Origin: an uncultured Gemmatimonadales bacterium
GTDB taxonomy: Bacteria; Gemmatimonadota; Gemmatimonadetes; Gemmatimonadales; Gemmatimonadaceae
NCBI GenBank assembly: GCA_963731305.1
Contig: CAVSUQ010000011.1
Span: 11,670 to 75,669 of the forward strand
Direction: 5' to 3'
Length of the DNA stretch: 64,000 bases
A model generated the notes under the pieces. The model saw nothing but the letters and a program-made list of their open reading frames with translations. It did not search any database and was not told the origin of the DNA. The position numbers and the translations under genes were made by a program. Shown here one piece after another: positions 49,851 through 62,753 of the stretch (position 1 is the first letter of the stretch; every line of letters begins with the position of its first letter).

Positions 49851-51282
49851 CTGCAATGTTATTGCCGGCTGGTGTTGCTGCATCGATCGTGTCGCCGCTA
49901 CCGAGTTCTCCGTATTGATTGCCTCCCCAGCACCACAGACGGCCGGTCACAGTGATGCCGCACGTACTCCACACTCCGACATCGATGTGCTGAAACTGAA
50001 TTCCATCGAGGACCTGGTTCGGCGCAGTAACAGAATGCAGTTGGTTTAGAACCAGGCCCAGACCGTTCTGGCCGTCATCTTCGGTTCCCCAGCAGTAGGC
50101 GAATCCGCCCGCGAGCCCGCAAATGAATGCGACGCCAGGCTGAAGCGTGGTAAACGGGGGGCCGTTGCCGAGGAAGCCTACCACACCGTTCGCGGGCTGC
50201 GATATACCGAATGGAAACACGAAGGCCGCGTCCCAGCACGACGCAGTGTTGGAGCCCGTTGTCCCGCAAACTGCTGACCCATCTGGAGCGGATCTGAGAG
50301 ACGTGAACTTTGTTGCGTCCTTTCGGGTCGGCGTCAGTTGCGGCGTACCATTCAGACTTGCGTTGCCCCAGCATACTGCTGTGCTATCCGTCGCGATTCC
50401 GCATGTACCGTCGGTGTCTGCAGTCACCGAGGTGAACTTGAAGTTGCCCGCCACTTTCGTTGGGGTATTCGTGCCGGTGGAATTACCGATGCCGAGCTGA
50501 CCGCTTGTATTCGTGCCCCAGCAGTACACGTCACCGATTTGTGTCAATCCGCAAATGTGAGCGAATCCAGCAGCGGCTTGTGTAAAGTTCAATCCAGTCG
50601 CGATTGCGCGTGGCGCTTTCGTTCCACTTGTGTCGGTCGGAATAGTTCCCCAGCAATACAGGTCGCCAATCGACGTGAGACCACAAGTAAACGAGTTTCC
50701 GAGTACCAGGCTCGTGAAGGATGGAACTCCATTCACGAGTATCGGCCTGGTATATACTGCCTGTGATGAAGCAGGATCGACCCAACCGCCGGAATTGTCT
50801 CCCCAGCAATAAGTGGCGCCGCCTACTGATAATGCGCAAGCGTGCCTGTCCTTGACCGCTACGAGCGCAAACCTGGATTCGGGCGGCGGTGGTGGGGTGA
50901 TCACGATAGCAATGCTGTCAGTGAAGTTGCCAGCAGCGACGTAAATCGTTGATTGGCCCTGAGCCAGGGCCGTTACGATTCCGTTGCTGGAAACGGACGC
51001 CAGCGACTGATCCGAGGAACTCCAGGTGGCACTATAACTTGTGAGCGGTTTGCTCTGTGCATCCAGGACCGTGTCCACCAGTTGCTCGGAGACGCCGATA
51101 TCCATAACCGCAACGCGCGGAGCAACAAATAGCCTCGTCGGAATCGGCGCCTGCGGCTGCGTCGGCAGCGCCGAACCTGGAGACGCCGAGTCGCCACCGC
51201 AGGCCAGGATGGCGAGACTCAGTACAACGAGATATGGAAGAGTTGCTCGGCGTGCATACGATACAAGGTGCGACTGCGCCAT
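49843..51282 (-). CDS. Lipoprotein with Big_2 Ig-like domain and RCC1-like (beta-propeller) repeats
   Basis: Start MAQSHLVSYARRATLPYLVVLSLAILACGG (ATG 51282). Big_2-like region (ATWSSSDQSLASVSSNGIVTALAQGQSTIYV). Six or seven repeats of the type YCWG.N..GQLG (CWGDNSGG, YCWGTNTSGQLG, YCWGTEDDGQNG, WCWGGNQYGELG). Confidence 0.75.
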   Translation of the reverse strand: MAQSHLVSYARRATLPYLVVLSLAILACGGDSASPGSALPTQPQAPIPTRLFVAPRVAVMDIGVSEQLVDTVLDAQSKPLTSYSATWSSSDQSLASVSSNGIVTALAQGQSTIYVAAGNFTDSIAIVITPPPPPESRFALVAVKDRHACALSVGGATYCWGDNSGGWVDPASSQAVYTRPILVNGVPSFTSLVLGNSFTCGLTSIGDLYCWGTIPTDTSGTKAPRAIATGLNFTQAAAGFAHICGLTQIGDVYCWGTNTSGQLGIGNSTGTNTPTKVAGNFKFTSVTADTDGTCGIATDSTAVCWGNASLNGTPQLTPTRKDATKFTSLRSAPDGSAVCGTTGSNTASCWDAAFVFPFGISQPANGVVGFLGNGPPFTTLQPGVAFICGLAGGFAYCWGTEDDGQNGLGLVLNQLHSVTAPNQVLDGIQFQHIDVGVWSTCGITVTGRLWCWGGNQYGELGSGDTIDAATPAGNNIAGN

Positions 51283-51435
51283 TAATACTCCACGCCAGGC
51301 AAATGTAAGTACAAAGACGTACGTTGCTGCTAAGGTCCTGCGCGACGCGGCGGCAACAAGAGCGCCATAATATGCGATGTCCTTACGCAATACGAAAGAC
51401 GCTGGCAGAGGTGCATCCGGCAAACCGGGGTCAGT

Positions 51436-51513
51436 AAACTGGGGTCAGAGTGCACTTTTCTTGTCGGATGCACAATCTGCTGGCGTTAGGAAAGTGCACT
51501 CTGACCCCAGTTT
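51436..51513. repeat. Perfect 23-bp inverted repeat (hairpin) with 32-nt spacer
   Basis: aaactggggtcagagtgcacttt (51436-51458) is the exact reverse complement of aaagtgcactctgaccccagttt (51491-51513). It lies directly 3' of the transposase remnant. Confidence 0.9.
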
Positions 51514-51539
51514 CCCTCAAGCTGGTGAGAAGCGCGTGC

Positions 51540-51870
51540 GGTGCCAGGTCTTGCGCGGTGCGCGTTTCACGGCACGGGTGGTCCGGCTCGCGCATGAGTA
51601 ATGAATACCGAGATGTTCTGTGATTGCGCGTTACGAAGCCGCCACTCGCAAACGAATCAGTGATCGCGTGATTCTGCTCGACCAGATTGCGCCCCATCTT
51701 ATCTTGCGGCGCTTGACTTTGCACTGCAGGCAGTTGCTAGGCAGGATGCAGCGTTTTTTGTCGCCGATCTGACGCAAGGTATGACACCACTGCATCGCGT
51801 TGCGGGGAACGTAGATGCGGTTGCGGTTGCTCTGGGTGTAACGCGATCGGCTACATACCGCAGGATGCAC
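51540..51870 (-). pseudogene. Decayed IS200-like (Y1, COG1943-type) transposase remnant with DnaA-type HTH tail (copy A)
   Basis: The minus strand reads ...RYTQSNRNRIYVPRNAMQWCHTLRQIGDKKRCILPSNCL (resembles the YHV..RGN.R..IF...D...FL motif). After a stop it reads AITEHLGIHYSCASRTTRAVKRA (resembles the SL.eIae.fG....stVsr HTH). Only about 110 codons remain. Confidence 0.45.
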
Positions 51871-51995
51871 CGACTAGGTGTTGCCGTTCCAAGAAGAGGA
51901 CCACGCCTCAGGCCGAGCAATGAGAGCGACGACGCCCTCGCGATGAGCAACCGCTAGCAGGGATCCCGTCACCCGCAAAGATTGAACCTCAGGAG

Positions 51996-52049
51996 TTGTC
52001 GCGTATTGTCGCGTATTGTTTCGAAACAATACGCGACAATGCGCGACAA
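51996..52049. repeat. 54-bp near-perfect palindrome built from tandem TTGTCGCGTAT units
   Basis: ttgtcgcgtattgtcgcgtattgtttc | gaaacaatacgcgacaatgcgcgacaa: 26 of 27 arm positions pair, with no spacer. It lies about 280 nt upstream of the Rhs start and directly 5' of transposase remnant A. Confidence 0.9.
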
Positions 52050-52330
52050 TAGATGCCTTGATTTAACGCTAAGTCGTTGTAACAACGCGGCTTAGCGTTT
52101 GTTGCGTCATGGCACTCGGCGTGCCTATACCGCCCTCCATGTTGCACAACGTGTTGCCATCAATGCGCTCGTTCCAGTGACTATAGGCAGTCGCTCCGAA
52201 GTCGCGCGAGTGAGCCAGATGCGAGCACCAATCCGGGGACAGTGTCGCCGGGTTCCGTCTACTCCTGTGTCAAGGCAATACAAGACGACCAGTCAAACCA
52301 GCTCGTCAACTCAAGCCCCGGTGTTTCGCA

Positions 52331-55300
52331 ATGAGATCTTCCCTGAGATTGTCATCGGTTAGTGATCGCCATCTCGGCTTCGTACATCAACTCAGATCGA
52401 GGCTGACGAGATGCCTTTGGATCGTCGCATTCTGGGCGCTCGCGATCCCAGCCGCGGCGTATGCTCAAGCGAAAAGCGGGAAGGTGATTCCGCTGATCGG
52501 AGGCAATGCGCTGGTAACGATCTATCCTTCCTCAGACAATGTCACGGTCTCAGGTAGTACTACGCACACATATCAATTTGATCTCGGTAACTCCGGGACC
52601 GGCAACACGACAGCGACGCTCAGCACTCCCACCTGTAGCGGCGCGGTCAGCGGTTGTTCGGTCTCACCGACGAGCGTCTCGCTGCCTGCCAATGGTGCGG
52701 GTGCGGTGGCGACGGTGAGCTATACCGCGGCAGCTACGGGTACGGGCACCATCATCCTCAACGCCAACTGGCCGTCCGGGAACAACGTGCAAGGCACACT
52801 CACCGTGACGGTGCAGAGCGCGACACCTGCAGTCTCGGTGAGTCCCAATCCGAACTACTCAGCCGAAAGCTTCGCCACGAACGATCCTAACTTCTCGGTC
52901 AAGAACAACGGTAACACGGCTTCTACTTACAACCTCTCTGTAGACTGCTCGGGCAACATCTCGGCCTGCTCCGTGGGCTCACCGAGCGCAAGTGTATCAC
53001 CGGGTAGCTCGACAGCCGCCACGGTCTATTACACCACCGGACCATGGACGAGTGGAAACGGCACGGCCACACTGACGGCGACCTCTGTTCTCACCGGTCA
53101 GTCGACCAATACGGCCGTCACAGTAGTCCCGCTTTCACCGGCGGTGAGCGTAACGCCTGACGGAGGAACTCCGAGCCCCGAGCCGGGCGTCGGAGCCAAT
53201 GTCAGTGTGCCATTCACGGTGACTGACGTTGGGAACTCGAGTCCCACTACGTATTCGCTCGTGTGCGGCTACTCGGGCGTTGTGACGAGCTGCTCGGTCA
53301 CACCAAGTGTCCAGGTATACATTGGCTCGCCGCAAACGGTTACGGTGAGCTACACGACAAGCACCAATACGGCAGGTGGTACGGGGCAGGTGACGCTCAC
53401 TGCGACCGCAGGCGGCCCTCAGGTACACACATACTCGGACGCCGGTAACTACAACGTTGCCGTGGCTGATGCGAGAACGTATACGCCGGTTGTCACACCC
53501 AAGGGCAGCCCGACTGGCCAAGCCAGCCCCTATACCTTGACTACTTACAAGTTCGCCGTCAAGAACACGGGCGATACGCAGGCGAGCTACACGCTGACAA
53601 CTCCGACGTGCACGGGCACGTCTGGTGGGTGTAGCGTGACCAGCCCGATCACGGTCAATCCTGGTCAGACCGATAGCGTAGCGGTGAGCTTTACAACTGG
53701 CGCTGCCGGTCAGAACGTGGCGCTCGACCTTCACGCTGCGATGAGTGCTCATGGAGTCACATTCGCAGACGACGGCACGGCCAGTATAAATGTGTCGTAC
53801 AGGCTTCAGGTCTCGACGGCGTTCATGAACAACGACGATCAGGACATGAGCCTCTGTGCTGCATCGTGCTTTGCAATGACGGCAGCAAGGAGCACGGTGC
53901 CGTACTACACACTCGATGCGCCGCGAAACGTAACGCTCGTGTACAACGGAGATCGTGCCTTCCCGAGACCGTTCATCTACGCTGACGTCTCAGATTCAAC
54001 GGCTCCGAGCTCCATCAGCAGCTACACGCTCGAGGTGAAGCGACTGGGCGTCGATCTTCCATTTGTCAACGGCGAGACCAAGCTGACCTTCCAGGGCACG
54101 AGTAGTCCCGCGACGACGTACCGCTTAGCGGGCCAGATCGATATGTCGAGTTATGCGACCAATGTGGACTCCGTGACATTAGTCGTGACGGCTTATTACA
54201 CGAACGGCGAGAGCGACGTCACGCCGGTCAAGACGCAGCTCATGTGGGTCAATTCGACACTCAATACACAGGCTGCGCCAATCGCTAAAGGGTGGCGGAT
54301 AGCGGGGATGCAGTATTTCAGAGGAACGCCCGAAGGGATCGGATCGTCCGGCGGCGGCTACATGATTGAGAACGGCGACGGGTCGGCCACATACTTCGCA
54401 TATAATGGTGCGATAGGTGCGGATCTCAGCACGCTCGCCTACGACAACGTTTCCAAGTGGATCAGGACGTACCAGGACGGAAGCAAGGTCGCATTCGATG
54501 GCGGTGGGCGAATGCTGTACGCTACCGATCGACTTGGGCGCGAGACACAGTTCATCTATGGTGGCACCGGTAATTGGAAACTCGTAGGGATCATTGAGCC
54601 GATGCGTTCGAGTGGTCACTCGACGTCGGCGCCATACGATTCGCTCACTTATGACGGCAATGGCAACCTCTCAGCGATTATCGAGACAGGCGGCACAGGT
54701 GGCCGCACGACCAGCGTTACCGTCGACGGGAGTGGACACCTGACGCGAATTACCGATCCTGACGGCGGTTACGACAGCTACGGCTACGACGGCTCGGGTC
54801 GGCTTAGCACGATCACAGACCGGCGTGGCAACACGACGACCTACAATTATGGTCTCACGTGGAAGCTTTCCAGCGTTGTGAGTCCATCGGTACCGATCGA
54901 CGCTGGCGGCGGAACGACAACAATGGGCACACCGACTACGAACATCTCGCCTTGGCAGGCGATCGGTGTACCATTCGATACTACAGCAATCACTCCAGCG
55001 GCTCTTACGCTACCAGCCAATGTCCTGGCGATTGTTACCGATCCCAAGAACGACACCACCAGGATGTATCCGGATCGCTGGGGCGAGCTATTAAAGACCG
55101 TCGACGCGCTTGGGAACACTACGACGATTCAGCGTTCCGGATTTCTCCCAACTGTCATTACTCATCCTGACGGAAGTGTGGACTCTGCGTCCTACTACGC
55201 TAGTGGCTTGTTGCAGACGCAACACTCGGCAGGTCAGCAGACTGTGAGCTATACCTACGGCAACATGAACCAGCTGCAGAGTGAATCCGGTAGCGGTGTG

Positions 55301-57889
55301 GTGACCGTGACAAACGTGCTCGACAGTCTGGGCCGCACAATCAAGACGACCTACGGCACGGTGACTGGCGATACGACGATTTTCAAGTACGACTCGGTGA
55401 CCAAGAACGTGGCGAGCATGTTCAGGCCGGACACGGGGCTCGTGACCTATCAGTACGACTCCAAGTTTGGGAACTCGAGCACGGAGACCGATCCGGGTAG
55501 CCGGGTGACTCAGTCCTACTTCGATAACTATGGCCGGGACACTGCGGACAAGGCGCCGCAGTATCCAATGACCAAAACCGTGTACGACGTCTTGAACCGA
55601 GTGACAGCACAGTACAACGGAGTCGCCGCTAACCCAATCCGGATCGCGTACGATGCGTTACTGCCGGTATCGGTGCGGGATCCATTGAGCCATGTAGATT
55701 CTACCGAGTATGACGCCGCTGGTAACGTCGCGCGACACTTCGGCTATGCATCTGCAACTGTCCCCACGACGATGAGATACGACCTAGCAAGCCGGCCGAC
55801 GAGTGTGACCAACCGGCGTGGCCAGGAGATAGATGTTACCTACGACCCGCTTGGACGTGTCTTGACTAAGACGGCAGACAGTGCGACGGATCATTTCACG
55901 TACTCGGCCAACGGTCTAATTCAGACCGCCTACAATGCCACTGATACGGTGCGCACTGTATCGGTACCAAGTGCGCTACTGGACACGGTCCAGACGACAA
56001 TGGCAGCAACTGGCGTCACGTCGCATATTTATACGATCGTACACCGCGCGAGCAGCGACGCCGGTGGGACGGATTCGACCACGATATCGAGCAACGGAGC
56101 GCCGGCCCAGTTCGTGACGCGGCGCTACGTGAACGATGCTGCAAGCGGTATGTTGAGCGCCATCAATTTGGGATCAAGCATTGGTCAGGGGAGCTTCACG
56201 TACGATGCGGCCAGCCGGCGCGTCGCCACCGCATGGCCCACTGCTGGCAGCAGCTCCTATTATCTATCGACCGGCACGCGCCAGTATCGGACTTACGGCA
56301 CACTCGACCCGTCCTTCTATGTGGGCTACGCTGTGGACTCGGCGGGGCGGATCTTGAGAGATCACAGGCACTACGGCTCGCCCACGGCGTACAGCAATCG
56401 CGTGTTTGGTTACGACGCGCTGGGCCGCTATACAGGGAGAGACAGTCTTAGCGATGCGACATATCCGTGGTTCTGCGGCGGCTCTGGTCGCTTCGATCCC
56501 AACTACGGGGAGTTTGGCTGCGCGATCGACAGCGTGATGACGCCCAACTCGTACGCCTACGATGACGCCGAGAACAGAGTCGGCGGCGGTATTCATTACG
56601 GCGTAGGCGACGAGGTGACGTCGTCCGACGGCTTCAGCTACACGTACGACGCCGACGGCAATGTCGCAACGCGTACTCAGTCCAGCACGGGCTCGGTGTG
56701 GACCTACAACTGGAGCTCGGACAACAGACTCTTGAGCGCAAGTACGAGCTTGTACGGTATTCCGAGCAACACGGTGAGCTTCGACTACGACGCGCTGGGA
56801 GAACCTGTGGTGAAGCGAGGCAGTACAGGTCAGGTAACGCGAGTCACACTGTACGATGGAGGCCAGATACTTGCCGATCTCGATTCATCGGGGCACAGAG
56901 AGGCAGAATACGTCTACGACGCCGGAACGGACGCGCCATATGCCATGCTCACAGGTACGGACACGGTGAGCGCGGTACGATACTACGCCCAGGACGATCT
57001 AGGGAACGTGCAGGGTCAGTTTGCAGACTACACGCGCTCAACGGAGACTGTATCGTACGGGGATTGGGGTCTTCCGACGGTGAGTGGCGAGACCGCGAAC
57101 CGGCTCACGTGGAAAGGTCTCTCATATGATCCGGATGTGGGACTCACGTACGTGAGAGCCAGGTGGTACGATCCCAACATCGGACGATTCGTGAGCGAGG
57201 ACCCCGCGGGCCTACAGGGCGGGATCAATCCTTACGTGTTCGCTAACAACGATCCGATCAATGGAGCTGATCCGAGTGGTGCGGATCCAGGATACGATGA
57301 CTCCAATAATGAGGGCAGTGGAGACGATGGGGGGTCTTGTACATACACAGTCCGATACCAGTATCCGTTATTGGAGGGCAACACTGGACTGGCCGGAGCT
57401 ATCCCTGGAACGGTGGAAATTATTGGAATGGAATGCCCAAACAGTGGCGTATCACAAGGCCCAACGCCTAGTAGCGGGGCTACAAAACAGCAACCCAAGC
57501 CGACTTTGCCTCCCTGTGCGCCCCCGGCAGCAAGAGGTAACGTAACCTACAAATTCGGGATTCCAACTGCCTCGCCAGCCGTGGCAAACTTTATGACGTG
57601 TACCTCGGCCTGCATGGGTGGTGCTACCTTTCGAGCATCATCGACGTCAGAAGCCCATTCGCTAGCCGACCCGCATACAAGAGGGTTTGCTGTAGATGGG
57701 GAGATACCGGGAAGTGTCGGTCAGATATTCCAGTGTGCGGCAAATTGCGGAGCGGTATTTCAGTTGAACGAATATACGAATCCGTCGCCGCACGCCACGG
57801 CCGGTCATTACCATTTCCAGCTCGTCCCTGGTAAGAACGGCGCTACCGGGCCCTATTATGCAAGATGCACGTACGCTACAAAGCCATGA
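52331..57889 (+). CDS. Rhs/YD-repeat polymorphic toxin (1852 aa): Sec signal, four Cys-pair Ig-like repeats, YD-repeat shell, and a LAS (M15-like) zinc-peptidase-type C-terminal toxin domain
   Basis: Signal CLWIVAFWALAIPAAAYA-QA. Many YD repeats (YDGNGNLSAI, YGYDGSGRLSTITDRRGNTTTYNY, YTYDADGNVATR). Rhs core end YVRARWYDPNIGRFVSEDPAGLQGGINPYVFANNDPINGADPSG. The C-terminal tip contains HTRGFAVD (H-x6-D, 57674-57697) and GHYHF (H-x-H, 57806-57814). Confidence 0.9.
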   Translation: MRSSLRLSSVSDRHLGFVHQLRSRLTRCLWIVAFWALAIPAAAYAQAKSGKVIPLIGGNALVTIYPSSDNVTVSGSTTHTYQFDLGNSGTGNTTATLSTPTCSGAVSGCSVSPTSVSLPANGAGAVATVSYTAAATGTGTIILNANWPSGNNVQGTLTVTVQSATPAVSVSPNPNYSAESFATNDPNFSVKNNGNTASTYNLSVDCSGNISACSVGSPSASVSPGSSTAATVYYTTGPWTSGNGTATLTATSVLTGQSTNTAVTVVPLSPAVSVTPDGGTPSPEPGVGANVSVPFTVTDVGNSSPTTYSLVCGYSGVVTSCSVTPSVQVYIGSPQTVTVSYTTSTNTAGGTGQVTLTATAGGPQVHTYSDAGNYNVAVADARTYTPVVTPKGSPTGQASPYTLTTYKFAVKNTGDTQASYTLTTPTCTGTSGGCSVTSPITVNPGQTDSVAVSFTTGAAGQNVALDLHAAMSAHGVTFADDGTASINVSYRLQVSTAFMNNDDQDMSLCAASCFAMTAARSTVPYYTLDAPRNVTLVYNGDRAFPRPFIYADVSDSTAPSSISSYTLEVKRLGVDLPFVNGETKLTFQGTSSPATTYRLAGQIDMSSYATNVDSVTLVVTAYYTNGESDVTPVKTQLMWVNSTLNTQAAPIAKGWRIAGMQYFRGTPEGIGSSGGGYMIENGDGSATYFAYNGAIGADLSTLAYDNVSKWIRTYQDGSKVAFDGGGRMLYATDRLGRETQFIYGGTGNWKLVGIIEPMRSSGHSTSAPYDSLTYDGNGNLSAIIETGGTGGRTTSVTVDGSGHLTRITDPDGGYDSYGYDGSGRLSTITDRRGNTTTYNYGLTWKLSSVVSPSVPIDAGGGTTTMGTPTTNISPWQAIGVPFDTTAITPAALTLPANVLAIVTDPKNDTTRMYPDRWGELLKTVDALGNTTTIQRSGFLPTVITHPDGSVDSASYYASGLLQTQHSAGQQTVSYTYGNMNQLQSESGSGVVTVTNVLDSLGRTIKTTYGTVTGDTTIFKYDSVTKNVASMFRPDTGLVTYQYDSKFGNSSTETDPGSRVTQSYFDNYGRDTADKAPQYPMTKTVYDVLNRVTAQYNGVAANPIRIAYDALLPVSVRDPLSHVDSTEYDAAGNVARHFGYASATVPTTMRYDLASRPTSVTNRRGQEIDVTYDPLGRVLTKTADSATDHFTYSANGLIQTAYNATDTVRTVSVPSALLDTVQTTMAATGVTSHIYTIVHRASSDAGGTDSTTISSNGAPAQFVTRRYVNDAASGMLSAINLGSSIGQGSFTYDAASRRVATAWPTAGSSSYYLSTGTRQYRTYGTLDPSFYVGYAVDSAGRILRDHRHYGSPTAYSNRVFGYDALGRYTGRDSLSDATYPWFCGGSGRFDPNYGEFGCAIDSVMTPNSYAYDDAENRVGGGIHYGVGDEVTSSDGFSYTYDADGNVATRTQSSTGSVWTYNWSSDNRLLSASTSLYGIPSNTVSFDYDALGEPVVKRGSTGQVTRVTLYDGGQILADLDSSGHREAEYVYDAGTDAPYAMLTGTDTVSAVRYYAQDDLGNVQGQFADYTRSTETVSYGDWGLPTVSGETANRLTWKGLSYDPDVGLTYVRARWYDPNIGRFVSEDPAGLQGGINPYVFANNDPINGADPSGADPGYDDSNNEGSGDDGGSCTYTVRYQYPLLEGNTGLAGAIPGTVEIIGMECPNSGVSQGPTPSSGATKQQPKPTLPPCAPPAARGNVTYKFGIPTASPAVANFMTCTSACMGGATFRASSTSEAHSLADPHTRGFAVDGEIPGSVGQIFQCAANCGAVFQLNEYTNPSPHATAGHYHFQLVPGKNGATGPYYARCTYATKP

Positions 57890-58640: not shown

Positions 58641-59110
58641 TAAGTTGACAGTCTGACCGGTCGCCAGAGGGTGGCCAGGAGGACTGGAAGATGCGGAAGA
58701 GTCGATCCACCGAGGCGCAGCACATTGACGTACGGTGTCAGGTCCGCCCATGCGTGTTCTGCACCGATGATCCGGCTCACGCGTGAGTAGTGATGGAGAC
58801 CGAAGTGTTCGCCGATCGCCTGCATCGTGCAGTCGCCACCGGCGACGGGATCGATGATCGCGCGATTCCGCTTGGCCCGACTGCCCGCCGGAGCTTACTC
58901 TGCTAGTGGTTGCTCGGTCGGACGCAGCAATTTCCATCTTTGGGCTGCTGCAGGGCGAACGCAGCGATGCGCCAGTGTCGTCTAGGATCGTGAGGAACAT
59001 CATCCGGTCACAGTCATCGAAATAGACCGGGTCCTAGCCGTCTCCACGTAAAATTATGTGATAGAGAGCACCGGGAATTGGAGACCCAGCGGTCTGAACA
59101 CTCACCGATC
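58640..59110 (-). pseudogene. Decayed IS200-like (Y1, COG1943-type) transposase remnant with DnaA-type HTH tail (copy B)
   Basis: Hand translation of the minus strand gives PIPGALYHIILRGDG-stop-DPVYFDDCDRMMFLTILDDTGAS, then WRIAAFAL, then AKRNRAIIDPVAGGDCTMQAIGEHFGLHHYSRVSRIIGAE in shifted frames. The HTH region is roughly three-quarters identical at nucleotide level to copy A (rough hand alignment). Confidence 0.5.
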
Positions 59111-59582
59111 ACACAACCGCTGGTGGACAGCGTGCGAATTGAGCTATGCGCGAGTGTGGCTAGGTCCTGCCTCGCTGCACAACGCGATATCTGACACCCG
59201 ATTACCCACTGTAGGATGAGACCTACTACTGTCGGATCGCTGCTACTCTGGTGCAAAGACTCGAAAGAATTTCGTCAAAAGTACTGCGCTTTTTGACCAC
59301 GCTCTGCGCTTTCCGGACGAATCGCGCAGCCTTTATCAGCGTCATGTTCGGACCATTTGGCTTTATGCATCGCAGTACGACAAAGAAGCAATGAAAATAG
59401 ACAGTCATTTGTACTCGTTCAGGCGCTGAGGTTCGAATAATAAGCCGCTTTAACTTAATATCAGCCACGTCAAAAAACGCATATCGTGTTCTGAATTCGC
59501 ACTTGCCGGTTCGACGCATACAGCTACGTTGTACTCCGCATCAAGTCAAAGCTCATCATGCGGATCCACTGCGCGGATTACT

Positions 59583-61088
59583 ATGCCGTCGTTCCGCAAC
59601 GCGAGGCCGTCTGTGTCATCGATTGCCGAAGGTGATTTGGAGTCAGTCGTTGTTGCCGGTGTGAGTCGAGAGTACCTGCTCCATCATCGAGTCTGTCCTG
59701 ACAAGCTCGATGGCGACGGTACACTCATCGTGGCTGTAGGACCCGGGGCGTTTCTCGAAGCGATTCCGGAGCTGAGCAACGTATATGGCCGGCGAGTCGC
59801 TACGCGCGAAGCATCGGATGACGATCTCGAGCGCATGATCGAGCGCATTACGGCGCACGCTGAGAGTGGCGCTGAGCCTTTACGCGGCGGTGAGGAAGAT
59901 ACCGCGGACGTTAGAGAGATCGCAAATCAGCCGCCGGTAATTCGTTATGTGAACACGTTGCTGCACGATGCATACGAGGCGGGAGCAAGCGACGTCCACA
60001 TAGAGTCCACACGCGGCGGTGCAGTGGCCCGCGCGCGCGTCGACGGTTTGCTCGCATCCACGATAGAGCCACCGCGGCGGTTGCACGATGCAGTCGTGTC
60101 GCGGCTCAAGCTGCTTGCCGATCTGGATATCTCGGAGCGCAGACGGCCGCAGGATGGGCGCATACGTGTGCGTGTGGACAACACGGAGCTCTACCTGCGC
60201 GTCTCGACCGTACCCACAGTCTACGGCGAGAGCGTCGTACTGCGCTTGCTTGATCGCGGCACGCGTCCCGTCGACCTCACTGCGCTTGGTATGCCGGATG
60301 ATATTCTGCGGGCGATGACGACGGCGATCGATCGTCCACACGGGATGGTGCTCGTCACGGGTCCAACTGGCAGCGGAAAGACGACTACGCTCTACAGCGC
60401 TCTGCGTAGACGTGATATCCGATCGGAGAAGGTGGTAACTGTGGAAGATCCGGTCGAGTACCAGCTCGAAGGGGTCACGCAGGTGCCGGTGCATCGCCAG
60501 GCCGGCGTCACGTTCGCCTCCGCGCTCCGATCGATCCTGAGGCAGGACCCGGACGTCGTGATGATTGGTGAAATGCGTGATATGGAGACCGCCGAGATCG
60601 CGATTCAGGCGTCGATGACAGGCCACCTCGTCTTTTCTACCCTTCATACCAACGATGCAATCGGTGCTCTACCGAGACTGTTCGATCTCGGCATCGCTCC
60701 ATATCTCATCGCGGCAACGCTCACCGCGATTCAGGCTCAACGCCTGGTGCGTAACGCATGCCCGGAATGCAAGTCACACTGCGAGCTTCGCGGTGAGCTC
60801 GCCGACCTGCAACGCAGCATCGCGCCCGAAATCTCTGCTGCTGATTTCGTTCGCGTGAACGGCTGTCCCGCATGTCGTGGTACAGGCTTCAAAGGGCGCA
60901 TCGGGATCTTCGAGATGGTTGCGGTCGACGACGCTCTCAGAGCTGCGATTGCCAGGAGCGCGCCGAGGGCGGAGCTCAAGTCCCTTGCGGACCAGCGCGG
61001 ATACAGGCCGATGATAGCCGACGGAATCGCGAAGGCCGCGCGTGGCATTACAACCATGGACGAGGTGCTCAGAGTCTGCAATGCCTAG
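59583..61088 (+). CDS. gspE: Type II secretion system ATPase GspE
   Basis: T2SSE_N-like N-terminus, Walker A VTGPTGSGKTTTLY, Asp/His boxes, and the tetracysteine CPECKSHC...CPACRGTG. ATG 59583, with an alternative TTG at 59529. Confidence 0.9.
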   Translation: MPSFRNARPSVSSIAEGDLESVVVAGVSREYLLHHRVCPDKLDGDGTLIVAVGPGAFLEAIPELSNVYGRRVATREASDDDLERMIERITAHAESGAEPLRGGEEDTADVREIANQPPVIRYVNTLLHDAYEAGASDVHIESTRGGAVARARVDGLLASTIEPPRRLHDAVVSRLKLLADLDISERRRPQDGRIRVRVDNTELYLRVSTVPTVYGESVVLRLLDRGTRPVDLTALGMPDDILRAMTTAIDRPHGMVLVTGPTGSGKTTTLYSALRRRDIRSEKVVTVEDPVEYQLEGVTQVPVHRQAGVTFASALRSILRQDPDVVMIGEMRDMETAEIAIQASMTGHLVFSTLHTNDAIGALPRLFDLGIAPYLIAATLTAIQAQRLVRNACPECKSHCELRGELADLQRSIAPEISAADFVRVNGCPACRGTGFKGRIGIFEMVAVDDALRAAIARSAPRAELKSLADQRGYRPMIADGIAKAARGITTMDEVLRVCNA

Positions 61089-61545
61089 AGAGCTGCATAA
61101 CTCCCCACGTGACCGGCGTGCGTTCACATTGATGGAACTGCTCGTCGTCATCGCGATCATCGCCACACTCGCAGCGATTGTGGCGCCAGCGATATTCCGA
61201 AACCTCGGCGACGCGAAAACGAGCGCCGCTCAGAGCCAGATCGAGATGTTGTCGATGGCGCTCAACTCGTATCGTCTCGACAATGGCGATTACCCGACGC
61301 AGGCTCAGGGGCTTGCAGCACTGCGCGTTGTGCCCACTGGCAGCGATGCGCCCCCAAACTGGCGCGGTCCGTACCTGACGCGTGACGTGCCGCTGGATCC
61401 ATGGCGACGTCCTTACATCTACACGTTCCCCGGTGTCGAGAATCAGGGAAGCTTCGACCTCTACACGCTCGGCAAGGACGGCAAGCCTGGCGGTGATGAC
61501 GAGGATGCGGATGTCACTTCGTGGGGCGGACCGGTGCATCAGTGA
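61081..61545 (+). CDS. gspG: Type II secretion major pseudopilin GspG
   Basis: Prepilin motif RRAFTLMELLVVIAIIATLAAIVAP. GspG signature PPNWRGPYLTRDVPLDPWRRPYIYTFPG...FDLYTLGKDGKPGGDDEDADVTSW. Confidence 0.9.
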   Translation: MPRELHNSPRDRRAFTLMELLVVIAIIATLAAIVAPAIFRNLGDAKTSAAQSQIEMLSMALNSYRLDNGDYPTQAQGLAALRVVPTGSDAPPNWRGPYLTRDVPLDPWRRPYIYTFPGVENQGSFDLYTLGKDGKPGGDDEDADVTSWGGPVHQ

Positions 61546-62753
61546 TCAGCCCCTCCGTTGGTTACAATGGCCCGAGTGCATTCAGGTATCGGGCTGCGCG
61601 TGCCGATGGCGCACTGCTACGCGGAACGATGATAGCGACGGATGAGCGATCCGCCGTGGATGCGCTCCATGCGCAAGGTCTGTATCCGATCGAGGTGGTG
61701 CGAGCGCGGTTCACATCGAGGCGAAGCGTGCCACGCTCGTCCGATGTTGCGCCGGGCTTGCGGGTGCTGGCAAACCTGTTGGCCGCCAACATTCCAATGT
61801 CTCGCACACTCGCGACGTTCGAGGAGCTCGCACCCAAGTCATGGGCAGCAGCGGCGGCGGCTATTCGCGAGCGCGTGAGGACCGGCGGACGTCTGGCAGA
61901 CGGCTTGCGAGAGGATGCAGGCCTGTCACCCGTGCTCGCGGGGATCATCGCCGCGGGCGAGTCATCCGGTGATCTCGCTCCGGCCGTTTTGCGGAGCGCA
62001 GAGCTGTCGGAAGAGAACGCGGCGCTGAGGTCAGCGGTGCGCGGGGCGCTCGTGTATCCAACGATTCTGCTGATCGCGGGAGCGTGCTCCGTCGGACTAC
62101 TTGTAGGCGTAGTCCTTCCGCGCTTCGCTTCGATTCTTGCCGATACAGGACAGGCGCCTCCGCCGCTGACGCAGCTCGTACTCAACGTCACTTCGGCTAT
62201 CCAGCAAAATGCAGTCTCGGCTGCAGTAATCGTGATACTCGGCGTTGTCGGTTGGCGCATCTGGACCAGGACGGCCAACGGCGGAGTGGTCTGGAGTGGT
62301 CTGCTTCTCCGCCTTCCCGGTGTAGGTGGGATCAGGCGTTCCGCCGCAACCTCACGCGTCTGCACTGCGATGGCGGCGCTGCTCGAATCGGGAGTCCCAG
62401 CGGCCGTCTCGCTCGGCCGCGCGGCGACAGCGGCGGGAGATGCAGCGATCGAATCACGTCTCGCCGCCGCGCGTGCGGGTGTAACACGCGGTGAGTCCAT
62501 CGGACGCGCGCTCGAAGACTCTTCGGCGCTGACGATCGCCGCGGCGCGTCTGATACGTGCAGGCGAGGAGTCGGGCCGAGTTTCGGCGATGTTCCTCCAC
62601 GCTGCGCGCATCGAAGGTGAGAGGGCAAGGGAGCTGACGCGGAGTGCGGTGCGACTCGTCGAGCCGTCACTCATCCTCGTGTTCGGCGCGATCGTGGCTC
62701 TGATTTCGGGAGCGCTGCTGCAGGCAGTGTACGCCATCCACCCAGTGCGCTGA
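61542..62753 (+). CDS. gspF: Type II secretion inner-membrane platform protein GspF
   Basis: Two T2SSF repeats (ANIPMSRTLATFEE..., ESGVPAAVSLGRAA...) and three TM segments. GTG 61542 overlaps the gspG stop (GTGA), with an alternative GTG at 61521. Confidence 0.85.
   Translation: MISPSVGYNGPSAFRYRAARADGALLRGTMIATDERSAVDALHAQGLYPIEVVRARFTSRRSVPRSSDVAPGLRVLANLLAANIPMSRTLATFEELAPKSWAAAAAAIRERVRTGGRLADGLREDAGLSPVLAGIIAAGESSGDLAPAVLRSAELSEENAALRSAVRGALVYPTILLIAGACSVGLLVGVVLPRFASILADTGQAPPPLTQLVLNVTSAIQQNAVSAAVIVILGVVGWRIWTRTANGGVVWSGLLLRLPGVGGIRRSAATSRVCTAMAALLESGVPAAVSLGRAATAAGDAAIESRLAAARAGVTRGESIGRALEDSSALTIAAARLIRAGEESGRVSAMFLHAARIEGERARELTRSAVRLVEPSLILVFGAIVALISGALLQAVYAIHPVR

What the first reader, a model, noticed from the sequence alone, without database searches (positions are those of the whole stretch)
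51436..52049. Transposase remnant A is flanked by a perfect 23-bp hairpin and a 54-bp palindrome: an IS200/IS605- or REPIN-like architecture
IS200/IS605-type Y1 transposases act on subterminal DNA hairpins. The about 110-codon remnant (51540-51870, minus strand) has structures on both sides.
- Immediately 3' lies a perfect inverted repeat, aaactggggtcagagtgcacttt / aaagtgcactctgaccccagttt, at 51436-51513.
- Immediately 5' lies a spacer-less palindrome with 26 of 27 arm positions paired, made of tandem TTGTCGCGTAT units (51996-52049).

Neither structure looks like a simple terminator, as neither has a U-tract. The unit could be a decayed element, a non-autonomous palindrome-associated element, or the palindrome could be an operator in front of the Rhs gene.
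Basis: seen in the sequence. Interest (0 to 1): 0.6.

Follow-up and report, generated by a model that had tools for sequence, protein, structure and literature searches.

The report
REP hairpin, transposase stub, sigma-54 enhancer
The two DNA structures are real but unrelated: one is a small repeat hairpin of the REP/REPIN kind, lying beside the last third of a dead transposase gene, and the other looks like the activator-binding enhancer of a sigma-54 promoter for the Rhs toxin gene; all three are ordinary kinds of feature.

Summary
Both structures exist as described (25/26-bp arms at 51436-51513; a 54-bp palindrome at 51996-52049, 26/27 paired). They do not belong to one element.

1. The hairpin is a REP doublet (REPIN-like). 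This genome has about 24 doublets, all in three regions. In five related Gemmatimonadaceae genomes and about 20 Lysobacterales genomes, single arms with the same core (GGGGTCAGAGTGCAC) bracket a 236-aa Y1 transposase ("RAYT-A") in inverted orientation.

2. The "transposase remnant" is only the last ~55 codons (51547-51712, minus strand) of a different RAYT clade ("RAYT-B"). It keeps its own end repeat (51538-51565). The catalytic domain is gone.

3. The rest of the supposed remnant (51745-51957, plus strand) is the C-terminal helix-turn-helix of a truncated sigma-54 activator (bEBP). The palindrome follows it and lies about 88 bp upstream of a conserved TGGCAC-N5-GTGC promoter (52110-52124) in front of the Rhs gene. 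The same layout recurs at a second Rhs gene 17.8 kb away and in relatives, so the palindrome is most likely an enhancer (UAS).

All parts are new members of known kinds. The exception of note is that the REP/RAYT-A pair is shared across two phyla. The scan has noted other REP-like families in Gemmatimonadota on other DNA.

The parts
51436..51513 (.). REP-A doublet (REPIN-like hairpin): arms 51436-51461 and 51488-51513, 26-nt spacer that is homologous to the spacers of other copies
   Evidence: structure. (about 24 doublets in the genome). (spacer homology). (the same arms bracket RAYT-A genes elsewhere).
51538..51565 (-). Single REP-B arm: the right-end repeat of the RAYT-B unit. In intact genes it overlaps the stop codon; here the stop has changed from TGA to TGG.
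   Evidence: a hairpin doublet of the same sequence at G000:C3:38296-38356. (23-24-nt perfect inverted REP-B arms bracket RAYT-B genes in G003, G011, G015 and G018).
51547..51712 (-). C-terminal remnant (about 55 codons, one frame change near 51631-51638) of a RAYT-B-type Y1 transposase. Only the C-terminal HTH tail survives. There is no HUH or Tyr catalytic domain.
   Evidence: tblastn: E 9e-8 with G007 (unpublished genome), 1.5e-5 with G011, 1.9e-5 with G015, 2.6e-4 with G003. DNA match. Pfam Y1_Tnp finds nothing in this genome.
51745..51957 (+). 3' remnant (last ~59 aligned codons, 51745-51912, then a short tail to the stop at 51955-51957) of a sigma-54-dependent activator (bEBP), including its Fis-type HTH
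   Evidence: tblastn with the G003 and G017 bEBPs, E 2e-10 and 3e-6. Weak HTH_8 Pfam hit on ORF 51781-51957. Part of the 348-bp block duplicated at C11:81257-81604.
51996..52049 (.). 54-bp palindrome made of 10-bp-phased TTGTCGCG half-sites: candidate upstream activator sequence (enhancer) for the bEBP
   Evidence: only two such clusters in the genome. (equivalent arrays at the same place in G003 x2, G005, G011, G016, G017 and G020).
52065..52099 (.). Small conserved inverted repeat (GCTAAGTCG-N13-CGgCTTAGC) between enhancer and promoter. Its role is unknown; a bending-protein site or a second regulator site is possible.
   Evidence: I16. (z = -4.2). Conserved in the G011, G016 and G017 leaders.
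52110..52124 (+). Candidate sigma-54 promoter TGGCACtcggcGTGC (GG at 52111-52112, GC at 52123-52124); predicted transcription start near 52135
   Evidence: identical 15-mer in 5 leaders from 4 genomes; 16 such motifs in the whole genome, 0.0007 expected in this leader. rpoN is present.
52331..57889 (+). Rhs-repeat gene, the presumed target of the promoter
   Evidence: ORF. (RHS_repeat).
58745..59078 (-). Second RAYT-B remnant ('remnant B'), internally deleted, in the same orientation, downstream of the Rhs gene
   Evidence: tblastn E down to 2e-9. 69% DNA identity to remnant A over 161 bp.

Best explanation
The interval holds three independent features that happen to be adjacent.

(a) 51436-51513 is a REP doublet, a REPIN-like non-autonomous hairpin element. 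It consists of two inverted copies of a ~25-nt repeat (consensus GAAACCGGGGTCAGAGTGCACTTTC) around a short spacer. In relatives the same two arms, in the same relative orientation, bracket a 236-aa Y1/HUH transposase gene (RAYT-A). The doublet is therefore the gene-less form of that unit. By inference it is copied in trans by RAYT-A acting on the single-stranded hairpin.

(b) 51538-51712 on the minus strand is the dead 3' end of a sister system (RAYT-B). It keeps the last ~55 codons plus that system's own end repeat.

(c) 51745-52124 is the 3' stub of a sigma-54 enhancer-binding protein gene, followed by its binding-site array (the 54-bp palindrome), a small conserved inverted repeat, and a -24/-12 promoter. 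By inference, the activator encoded at the second locus, or a paralogue, binds the palindrome through its HTH. It then loops to sigma-54 RNA polymerase about 88 bp downstream and opens the promoter by ATP hydrolysis to transcribe the Rhs gene.

The stub arose because a duplication, or a deletion next to the RAYT-B copy, began inside the activator gene.

Shown: the sequences, copy numbers, homologies and conserved geometry. Inferred: mobilisation by RAYT-A, binding of the bEBP to the palindrome, and sigma-54 dependence of Rhs.
For: Hairpin:
- The genome has 24 paired doublets plus single arms. All lie in C3:3-122 kb, C2:352-417 kb and C11:63/88 kb.
- The core pattern gives 36 hits in this genome against 0 for the reversed control. 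It is found in 11 of 21 genomes of the genus (16 of the 41 genomes searched have at least one hit).
- A left arm lies ~100 bp upstream of RAYT-A and a right arm at or over its stop codon in G019, G016, G005, G003 and G011. The same is true in about 20 Lysobacterales loci.
- RAYT-A at 66% identity or more occurs only in genomes that have the repeat.
- Spacers of 10 doublets align with one another.
- Some compensated arm changes are seen.
- Copies sit at gene ends.

Remnant.

Enhancer:
- The bEBP (Sigma54_activat + AAA_lid + HTH_8, with a GAFTGA/GAFSGA loop) lies directly upstream of the palindrome at C11:80402-81368 and in G003, G005, G016 and G017.
- A 348-bp block at 94% identity is shared by the two Rhs leaders.
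- The promoter 15-mer is invariant in 5 leaders while its flanks vary. GG-N10-GC keeps the same ~88-bp distance in two G003 loci with otherwise different sequence.
- The motif is rare genome-wide.
- rpoN is present.
- No sigma-70-like promoter is found.
Against: - No RAYT-A, and no intact Y1 transposase at all, is found in this assembly (77% complete). Whether the doublets are still mobile here is unknown.
- The family is low-copy and regionally clustered, unlike classical dispersed REPINs. Covariation between arms is modest (28 compensated changes against 18.9 +/- 3.6 with shuffled partners).
- The REP arm is not itself a palindrome and lacks the GTAG/CGTC tag typical of described REPs.
- The -12 element reads GTGC, not TTGC.
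- The only near-full bEBP orthologue in this genome has an apparent 1-nt frameshift.
- In G011 the enhancer-promoter unit is not preceded by the bEBP gene.
- No binding or transcript data exist.
Confidence: 0.8

Rival explanations
1. One reading: one decayed IS200/IS605-like or REPIN-like unit, in which the hairpin and the 54-bp palindrome are the two subterminal structures of the transposase remnant between them.
For: A Y1-transposase remnant does lie between the two structures. Y1 transposases use subterminal hairpins (established knowledge of IS200/IS605 and of TnpA-REP).
Against: - Intact RAYT-B genes are bracketed by REP-B arms, not by either structure, and RAYT-B loci contain no REP-A arms.
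- RAYT-A is bracketed by REP-A on both sides, never by the palindrome.
- A plus-strand bEBP stub separates the remnant from the palindrome.
- The palindrome travels with the bEBP gene and the Rhs leader.
Confidence: 0.04
2. The 54-bp palindrome is a binding site for a repressor or some other transcription factor (an operator), not the enhancer of the adjacent sigma-54 activator.
For: Long perfect palindromes are typical of repressor operators. The bEBP orthologue in this genome looks frameshifted. In G011 the unit lacks the adjacent bEBP gene.
Against: - The distance to the -24/-12 motif is fixed at ~88 bp, far upstream of the promoter rather than over it.
- The array lies immediately after the bEBP gene in 5 genomes.
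- 10-bp-phased multi-site arrays suit an oligomeric AAA+ activator.
Confidence: 0.1
3. The 54-bp palindrome is itself a tiny mobile element (a MITE or REPIN of a third family) that landed in front of the Rhs genes.
For: It is a perfect spacer-less inverted repeat. Similar arrays occur in several genomes, and twice within 730 bp in G003.
Against: - Only two copies exist in this genome, inside a 348-bp duplicated block with conserved flanks.
- In relatives it always occupies the same functional position.
- Its sequence drifts between species while the TTGTCGC half-sites and the spacing are kept.
- No target-site duplication is evident.
Confidence: 0.04
4. The hairpin family consists of integron attC sites (a cassette array without integrase) or simple bidirectional terminators, rather than RAYT-associated repeats.
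For: Copies are clustered regionally and lie at gene ends, often between convergent genes. Integron integrases are common in this order: 19 of 41 genomes score above the family cut-off.
Against: - No integron integrase is found in this genome.
- Integrase-positive relatives G010, G013 and G017 have no copies. Repeat-rich G005, G011, G016 and G019 have no integrase.
- Flanking genes are large (400-1000 aa) and in both orientations.
- No R''/R' RYYYAAC/GTTRRRY boxes are present.
- No U-tract is present.
- The arms bracket RAYT genes.
- A terminator or mRNA-stabiliser side role is not excluded.
Confidence: 0.03

Closest known systems
REP/REPIN-RAYT systems (REPtrons) of Gammaproteobacteria: E. 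coli REP/BIME with TnpA-REP, Pseudomonas fluorescens REPINs (Bertels and Rainey, PMC3116915, PMC3337134; RAYT groups, PMC5581495)
   Same: Two inverted short repeats form a hairpin doublet. The copies are extragenic, at gene ends. A single Y1/HUH transposase gene (Pfam Y1_Tnp) is bracketed by the same repeats in inverted orientation. The doublet including its spacer is the repeated unit.
   Different: - The copy number is low (about 24 doublets here, 2-21 core hits elsewhere), and copies are clustered within tens of kb rather than dispersed.
- The single arm is not a palindrome and has no GTAG/CGTC tag. Both local families instead start with GGGGTCAG.
- The host is Gemmatimonadota.
- The same REP core and a 58-73% identical RAYT occur in Lysobacterales. 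The literature describes these systems as almost strictly vertically inherited (10.1101/2021.07.10.451892).
IS200/IS605 insertion sequences and their gene-less derivatives (PATEs)
   Same: A Y1 HUH transposase family, subterminal hairpins instead of terminal inverted repeats, and gene-less palindromic derivatives.
   Different: No intact TnpA is present and the remnant lacks the catalytic domain. The two structures in the window are not the left and right ends of one unit. The RAYT-type proteins here are longer (236-333 aa) and have C-terminal extensions.
Enhancer (UAS)-dependent sigma-54 promoters with regulatory-domain-less bEBPs, such as PspF at pspA and HrpR/HrpS at hrpL (from general knowledge of the family)
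   Same: A short bEBP (335-356 aa) that starts at the AAA+ domain, carries a GAFTGA loop and a C-terminal Fis-type HTH. A palindromic multi-site array lies about 90-115 bp upstream of a GG-N10-GC promoter. An intervening conserved element sits where IHF sites often lie.
   Different: The TTGTCGCG half-site and its 10-bp-phased 3+3 arrangement are specific to this genus as far as I searched. The target is a Sec-signal Rhs protein next to a type II secretion cluster. Nothing has been tested experimentally.

Membership tests
REPIN (REP doublet) | [quoted passage not shown] | tested here: met
   (I2: 26-nt arms, 96% complementary). (-30.3 kcal/mol, z = -8.5).
REPIN (REP doublet) | Repeated within the genome, mostly extragenic | tested here: met
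   24 doublets plus single arms. They lie between predicted genes, often within 20 nt of gene ends.
REPIN (REP doublet) | A cognate RAYT gene flanked by the same REPs | tested here: inconclusive
   Met in relatives: 5 Gemmatimonadaceae genomes and about 20 Lysobacterales loci. Not found in this genome itself, which is only 77% complete.
REPIN (REP doublet) | The doublet, not the single REP, is the replicating unit | tested here: inconclusive
   Spacers of 10 doublets are homologous. Arms of one doublet share changes slightly more often than arms of shuffled partners (28 against 18.9 +/- 3.6). No insertion polymorphism was examined.
REPIN (REP doublet) | High copy number, dispersed over the chromosome | tested here: not met
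   About 36 arm cores, all in three regions that make up about 7% of the assembly. The same low, local pattern is seen in Lysobacterales.
REPIN (REP doublet) | GTAG or CGTC tag at the REP end (PMC3733652) | tested here: not met
   The arm consensus GAAACCGGGGTCAGAGTGCACTTTC has neither tag at its ends.
IS200/IS605 element | Intact Y1 HUH transposase (HUH motif and catalytic Tyr) | tested here: not met
   Only residues ~235-288 of a RAYT-B-type protein remain. Pfam Y1_Tnp finds nothing in the window or the genome.
IS200/IS605 element | Left and right subterminal hairpins belonging to the same unit | tested here: not met
   The hairpin belongs to the RAYT-A system. The palindrome belongs to the bEBP/Rhs leader. 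The remnant's own end repeat is REP-B.
Sigma-54 enhancer (UAS) and promoter | A -24 GG / -12 GC promoter downstream of the site | tested here: met
   TGGCACtcggcGTGC at 52110-52124, invariant in 5 leaders. Only 16 such motifs in the genome.
Sigma-54 enhancer (UAS) and promoter | Sigma-54 (rpoN) encoded in the genome | tested here: met
   TIGR02395 match at 428.7 bits, above the cut-off, at C8:165043-166467.
Sigma-54 enhancer (UAS) and promoter | A cognate bEBP with an AAA+ sigma-54 interaction domain, a GAFTGA loop and an HTH | tested here: met
   Sigma54_activat at E 5e-55, AAA_lid_14 and HTH_8. GAFTGA is visible in the alignment. The gene lies directly upstream of the palindrome at the second locus and in 4 relatives. 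The copy in this genome has an apparent frameshift.
Sigma-54 enhancer (UAS) and promoter | The activator binds the site and transcription depends on it | not testable with these tools
   This needs footprinting or EMSA, 5' end mapping, and rpoN and bEBP mutants.
Integron attC site | Association with IntI, short co-oriented cassettes, and R''/R' core sites | tested here: not met
   See the rival explanation.

The most novel reading that the evidence does not exclude
A complete REP-RAYT system was transferred between phyla, most simply from Lysobacterales (Pseudomonadota) into one genus of Gemmatimonadaceae. The transfer included both the RAYT-A gene and its cognate repeat with the core GGGGTCAGAGTGCAC. 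After transfer the system founded a new, still small repeat population that spreads only locally, within tens of kb of the transposase. This would be a counter-example to the view that REPIN-RAYT systems are almost exclusively vertically inherited and that establishment after transfer is 'vanishingly' unlikely. It would also show an early, local phase of REPIN population growth.
Probability: 0.5. Interest if true: 0.5.

Novelty: new member of a known kind. Interest (0 to 1): 0.3.

Why it matters
For annotation, this interval should not be read as one mobile element bracketing the Rhs island. It combines a REP doublet, a dead RAYT stub and a truncated activator gene with its enhancer.

The enhancer reading gives a concrete, testable hypothesis for how these Sec/T2SS-linked Rhs toxin genes are switched on: sigma-54 plus a PspF-like activator encoded at the end of the type II secretion cluster.

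The REP result adds a second phylum to a RAYT/REP family otherwise seen in Lysobacterales. If the transfer reading holds, it bears on the current claim that REPIN-RAYT systems are vertically inherited 'endosymbiont-like' replicators.

Tried and rejected
- Pfam on the three minus-strand ORFs of the supposed remnant gave nothing. PF01797 on the whole genome gave nothing.
- tblastn of RAYT-A against the window gave only chance-level hits (best E 0.08 in a 900-nt target). I therefore rejected the idea that the remnant is the hairpin's own transposase.
- Rfam on 51200-52500 gave only sub-threshold generic microRNA-hairpin hits. No known RNA family matches.
- Integron/attC hypothesis for the clustered hairpins: rejected.
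- Regulon search for TTGTCGCG clusters in this genome found only the two Rhs leaders. The single 8-mer is barely enriched (332 against 262 for the control). There is no wider regulon here at that stringency.
- A 14-mer resembling the palindrome arm inside a RAYT-B coding region (L056) corresponds to the codons of the conserved AYCL motif. I judged it coincidental because the other RAYT-B genes lack it.
- A literature search for the REP core as a text string returned only unrelated primer sequences.
- Covariation in the hairpin is present but weak. I do not use it as strong evidence.

Full report
**Observation.** The window is G000:C11:11670-75669, in a 3.18-Mb assembly of 17 contigs that is 77% complete.
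- The repeat finder confirms both structures. Arms 51436-51461 / 51488-51513 are 26 nt, 96% complementary, with a 26-nt spacer. The spacer-less palindrome 51996-52049 has 27-nt arms, 96% complementary, and is made of the direct repeat TTGTCGCGTA x2.
- As single-stranded DNA both fold far better than shuffles (z = -8.5 and -11.2).
- The region holds no U-tract terminator and no sigma-70-like promoter.
- Rfam gives only generic, sub-threshold hairpin hits.

**The hairpin is one copy of a repeat family.**
- A search of the whole assembly with 51400-51540 gave 79 partial matches.
- Pattern scans found 49 arm matches at 5 or fewer mismatches and 24 paired doublets plus single arms. The arm consensus is GAAACCGGGGTCAGAGTGCACTTTC.
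- All copies lie in C3:3-122 kb, C2:352-417 kb, and two sites on C11. The two C11 sites are the window copy and C11:88385-88450, just downstream of a second Rhs gene.
- Copies sit between predicted genes, typically within 20 nt of gene ends and often between convergent genes. The flanking genes are large and in both orientations.
- Ten doublets of the ~65-nt class also align through their spacers, so the doublet including its spacer is the repeated unit.
- Arm-to-arm compensation is present but modest: 28 shared changes against 18.9 +/- 3.6 for shuffled partners, and 2 of 16 pairs with double changes. The window copy is one of the best preserved and carries one compensated change (C to T in one arm, G to A in the other).

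**The family is tied to a Y1 transposase.**
- Across 41 genomes (this one plus 40 related), the 15-nt core at 1 or fewer mismatches occurs in 11 of 21 genomes of the genus. Outside the genus it appears only as isolated 1-2-hit matches. Copies are again clustered, and the reversed-pattern control gives 0-1 hits.
- Pfam Y1_Tnp genes in those relatives lie next to repeat copies.
- In G019, G016, G005, G003 and, as a fragment, G011, a left arm lies about 100 bp upstream of a 236-aa Y1_Tnp protein. A right arm, inverted, lies at or over its stop codon. I call this protein RAYT-A and the repeat REP-A.
- RAYT-A at 66% identity or more was found in six genomes of the genus. All six have 8 or more core hits. 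None of the ten genomes with no core hits has it.
- A scan of one genome per species named the hosts as Gemmatimonadaceae. It showed the nearest outside relatives of RAYT-A (58-73% identity) in Lysobacterales: Rhodanobacter, Lysobacter, Luteimonas, Pseudoxanthomonas and Cognatiluteimonas, isolates included.
- In about 20 of these 28 loci the same core brackets the gene at the same positions. This is the defining anatomy of a RAYT with its REPs. The window hairpin has the two arms in the same relative orientation without the gene, so it is a REPIN-like doublet.
- This genome itself has no Y1_Tnp match, so activity here cannot be judged.

**Integron attC sites were considered and rejected.**
- The genome has no IntI.
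- IntI-positive relatives G010, G013 and G017 have no copies of the repeat.
- Repeat-rich G005, G011, G016 and G019 have no IntI.
- The gene content around the copies is not cassette-like.

**The transposase remnant is real but belongs to another clade.**
- RAYT-A gives only chance-level similarity to the window.
- A DNA search with 51514-51995 matched the 3' part of a different Y1 gene in G007, an unpublished genome.
- tblastn with that protein and with orthologues from G011, G015, G003 and G018 (unpublished) aligns residues ~235-288 to 51639-51712 and 51547-51630 on the minus strand, in two frames. E-values are 9e-8, 1.5e-5, 1.9e-5 and 2.6e-4.
- This clade (RAYT-B, 288-333 aa, 33-40% identical to RAYT-A) has a C-terminal HTH-like tail. 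Only that tail survives here; the catalytic domain is absent.
- RAYT-B has its own repeat, REP-B (GGGGTCAGGTCTTGC[G/C]CCGTGCG). REP-B brackets the gene as 22-24-nt perfect inverted repeats in G003, G011, G015 and G018 and contains the stop codon.
- The window keeps one REP-B arm at 51538-51565, with the stop changed from TGA to TGG. A REP-B doublet lies at C3:38296-38356.
- RAYT-B loci contain no REP-A arms.
- A second, internally deleted RAYT-B remnant lies at 58745-59078 on the minus strand. It is 69% identical in DNA to the first.
- The claim that the remnant is RAYT-B rests most strongly on G007 but holds with the published G011, G015 and G003.

**The rest of the supposed remnant, and the palindrome.**
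- The palindrome has only two copies in the genome. Both lie in a 348-bp block (51801-52148, matching C11:81257-81604 at 94% identity). That block is followed, after a 155-bp indel, by the 5' ends of two paralogous Rhs genes.
- In relatives, similar arrays of TTGTCGC[G/A] half-sites lie between a 335-356-aa gene and a large secreted-protein gene.
- That gene is a sigma-54 enhancer-binding protein: Sigma54_activat (E about 1e-53 to 1e-55), AAA_lid_14 and HTH_8, with no N-terminal regulatory domain.
- This genome has a near-full orthologue at C11:80402-81368, at the end of a type II secretion cluster (GspE/G/F at 59529-62753). It is directly upstream of the second palindrome and has an apparent 1-nt frameshift.
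- In the window only the last ~59 codons survive, at 51745-51957 on the plus strand (E 2e-10).
- So the interval 51540-51870 is a tail of RAYT-B on the minus strand, abutting a tail of the bEBP on the plus strand.

**The promoter.**
- About 88 bp downstream of the palindrome centre lies TGGCACtcggcGTGC (52110-52124).
- The same 15-mer is invariant in the second Rhs leader and in the G011, G016 and G017 leaders while the flanks vary.
- Two G003 loci with different sequence keep GG-N10-GC at the same distance from their arrays.
- Only 16 matches to TGGCAY-N5-KTGC exist in the whole genome, and 0.0007 are expected in this leader.
- rpoN is present.
- A small conserved inverted repeat (52065-52099) lies between the array and the promoter.
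- The most economical reading is a classical enhancer-dependent sigma-54 promoter for the Rhs gene, with the 54-bp palindrome as the activator's binding-site array.
- Binding and sigma-54 dependence are inferred, not shown.

**Comparison with what is known.**
- REP-A/RAYT-A meets the structural definition of a REP/REPIN-RAYT system (PMC3116915, PMC3337134). It departs from it in copy number and dispersal: it is low-copy and local, also in Lysobacterales. It also lacks a GTAG/CGTC tag (PMC3733652).
- It is not an IS200/IS605 element.
- The enhancer resembles PspF- or HrpRS-type systems.
- One unexpected point stands out. The literature describes REPIN-RAYT systems as vertically inherited, with establishment after transfer very unlikely (10.1101/2021.07.10.451892; PMC5581495). 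Here an identical REP core and a 58-73% identical RAYT are shared by Gemmatimonadaceae and Lysobacterales.
- The Gemmatimonadaceae proteins form one tight clade among gammaproteobacterial lineages. The backbone of the tree is unresolved and the direction of transfer was not formally tested.
- The family is confined to one genus of its order.
- Mis-binning is unlikely. The repeats lie on contigs of 415-820 kb in several independent assemblies and on the window's own 434-kb contig.

**Verdict.** Each part is a new member of a known kind, and interest is low to moderate. The cross-phylum REP-RAYT pair is the lead most worth following. Earlier notes of this scan report other REP-like families in Gemmatimonadota on other DNA; I did not test them.

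Noticed in passing
L059-L085 (Lysobacterales loci) and L030, L047, L029 (Gemmatimonadaceae): The same REP core (GGGGTCAGAGTGCAC, often with identical flanks up to 22 nt) and a 58-73% identical RAYT occur in two phyla. G019 and G016, different species of one genus, have 99% identical RAYT-A proteins.
   Followed up: partly
G003:C2:347600-358500 (L048, L050): At least four RAYT-A copies or fragments lie within 11 kb, interrupted by TAG stops, truncated, or surviving only as short fragments, and interleaved with REP-A arms. This looks like local, IS-like multiplication of the RAYT unit followed by decay.
   Followed up: no
G000:C11:86482 and 88461 (outside the window; the second is 11 nt after the REP-A doublet at 88385-88450): Two identical further matches to the sigma-54 -24/-12 pattern (TGGCACTACACGTGC): one inside the 3' part of the second Rhs gene and one just downstream of it. 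They may be a duplicated segment, such as orphan toxin-tip modules with their own promoter.
   Followed up: no
G000:C11:81100-81120 (outside the window): The only near-full orthologue of the Rhs-linked sigma-54 activator has an apparent 1-nt insertion that shifts the frame after the ...RQTIERA motif. It may be a true pseudogene or an assembly indel. Earlier notes on this window report many frame changes.
   Followed up: partly
window 52149-52303: A 155-bp segment of the Rhs leader is absent from the otherwise 89-94% identical leader of the second Rhs gene. The predicted 5' UTRs therefore differ (about 195 nt against about 50 nt).
   Followed up: no
window 52065-52099: A conserved inverted repeat (GCTAAGTCG-N13-CGACTTAGC in relatives) lies between the enhancer and the sigma-54 promoter in four genomes. 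Its role is unknown.
   Followed up: partly
41 genomes searched in this order of Gemmatimonadota: Integron integrases scoring above the TIGR02249 cut-off occur in 19 of the 41 genomes searched (this one plus 40 related), a high frequency. None was found in this genome.
   Followed up: no
G000:C3:38296-38356: A REP-B hairpin doublet, the repeat of the second RAYT clade, is present in this genome although no intact RAYT-B exists. REP-A and REP-B share the head GGGGTCAG.
   Followed up: partly
L043 (G003:C12:82100-83000): Two TTGTCGCG arrays lie 720 bp apart, each about 89 bp upstream of a GG-N10-GC motif. The first precedes a small LTXXQ/CpxP-like periplasmic protein gene and the second a large secreted-protein gene. 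In that species the activator may therefore control two adjacent promoters.
   Followed up: no
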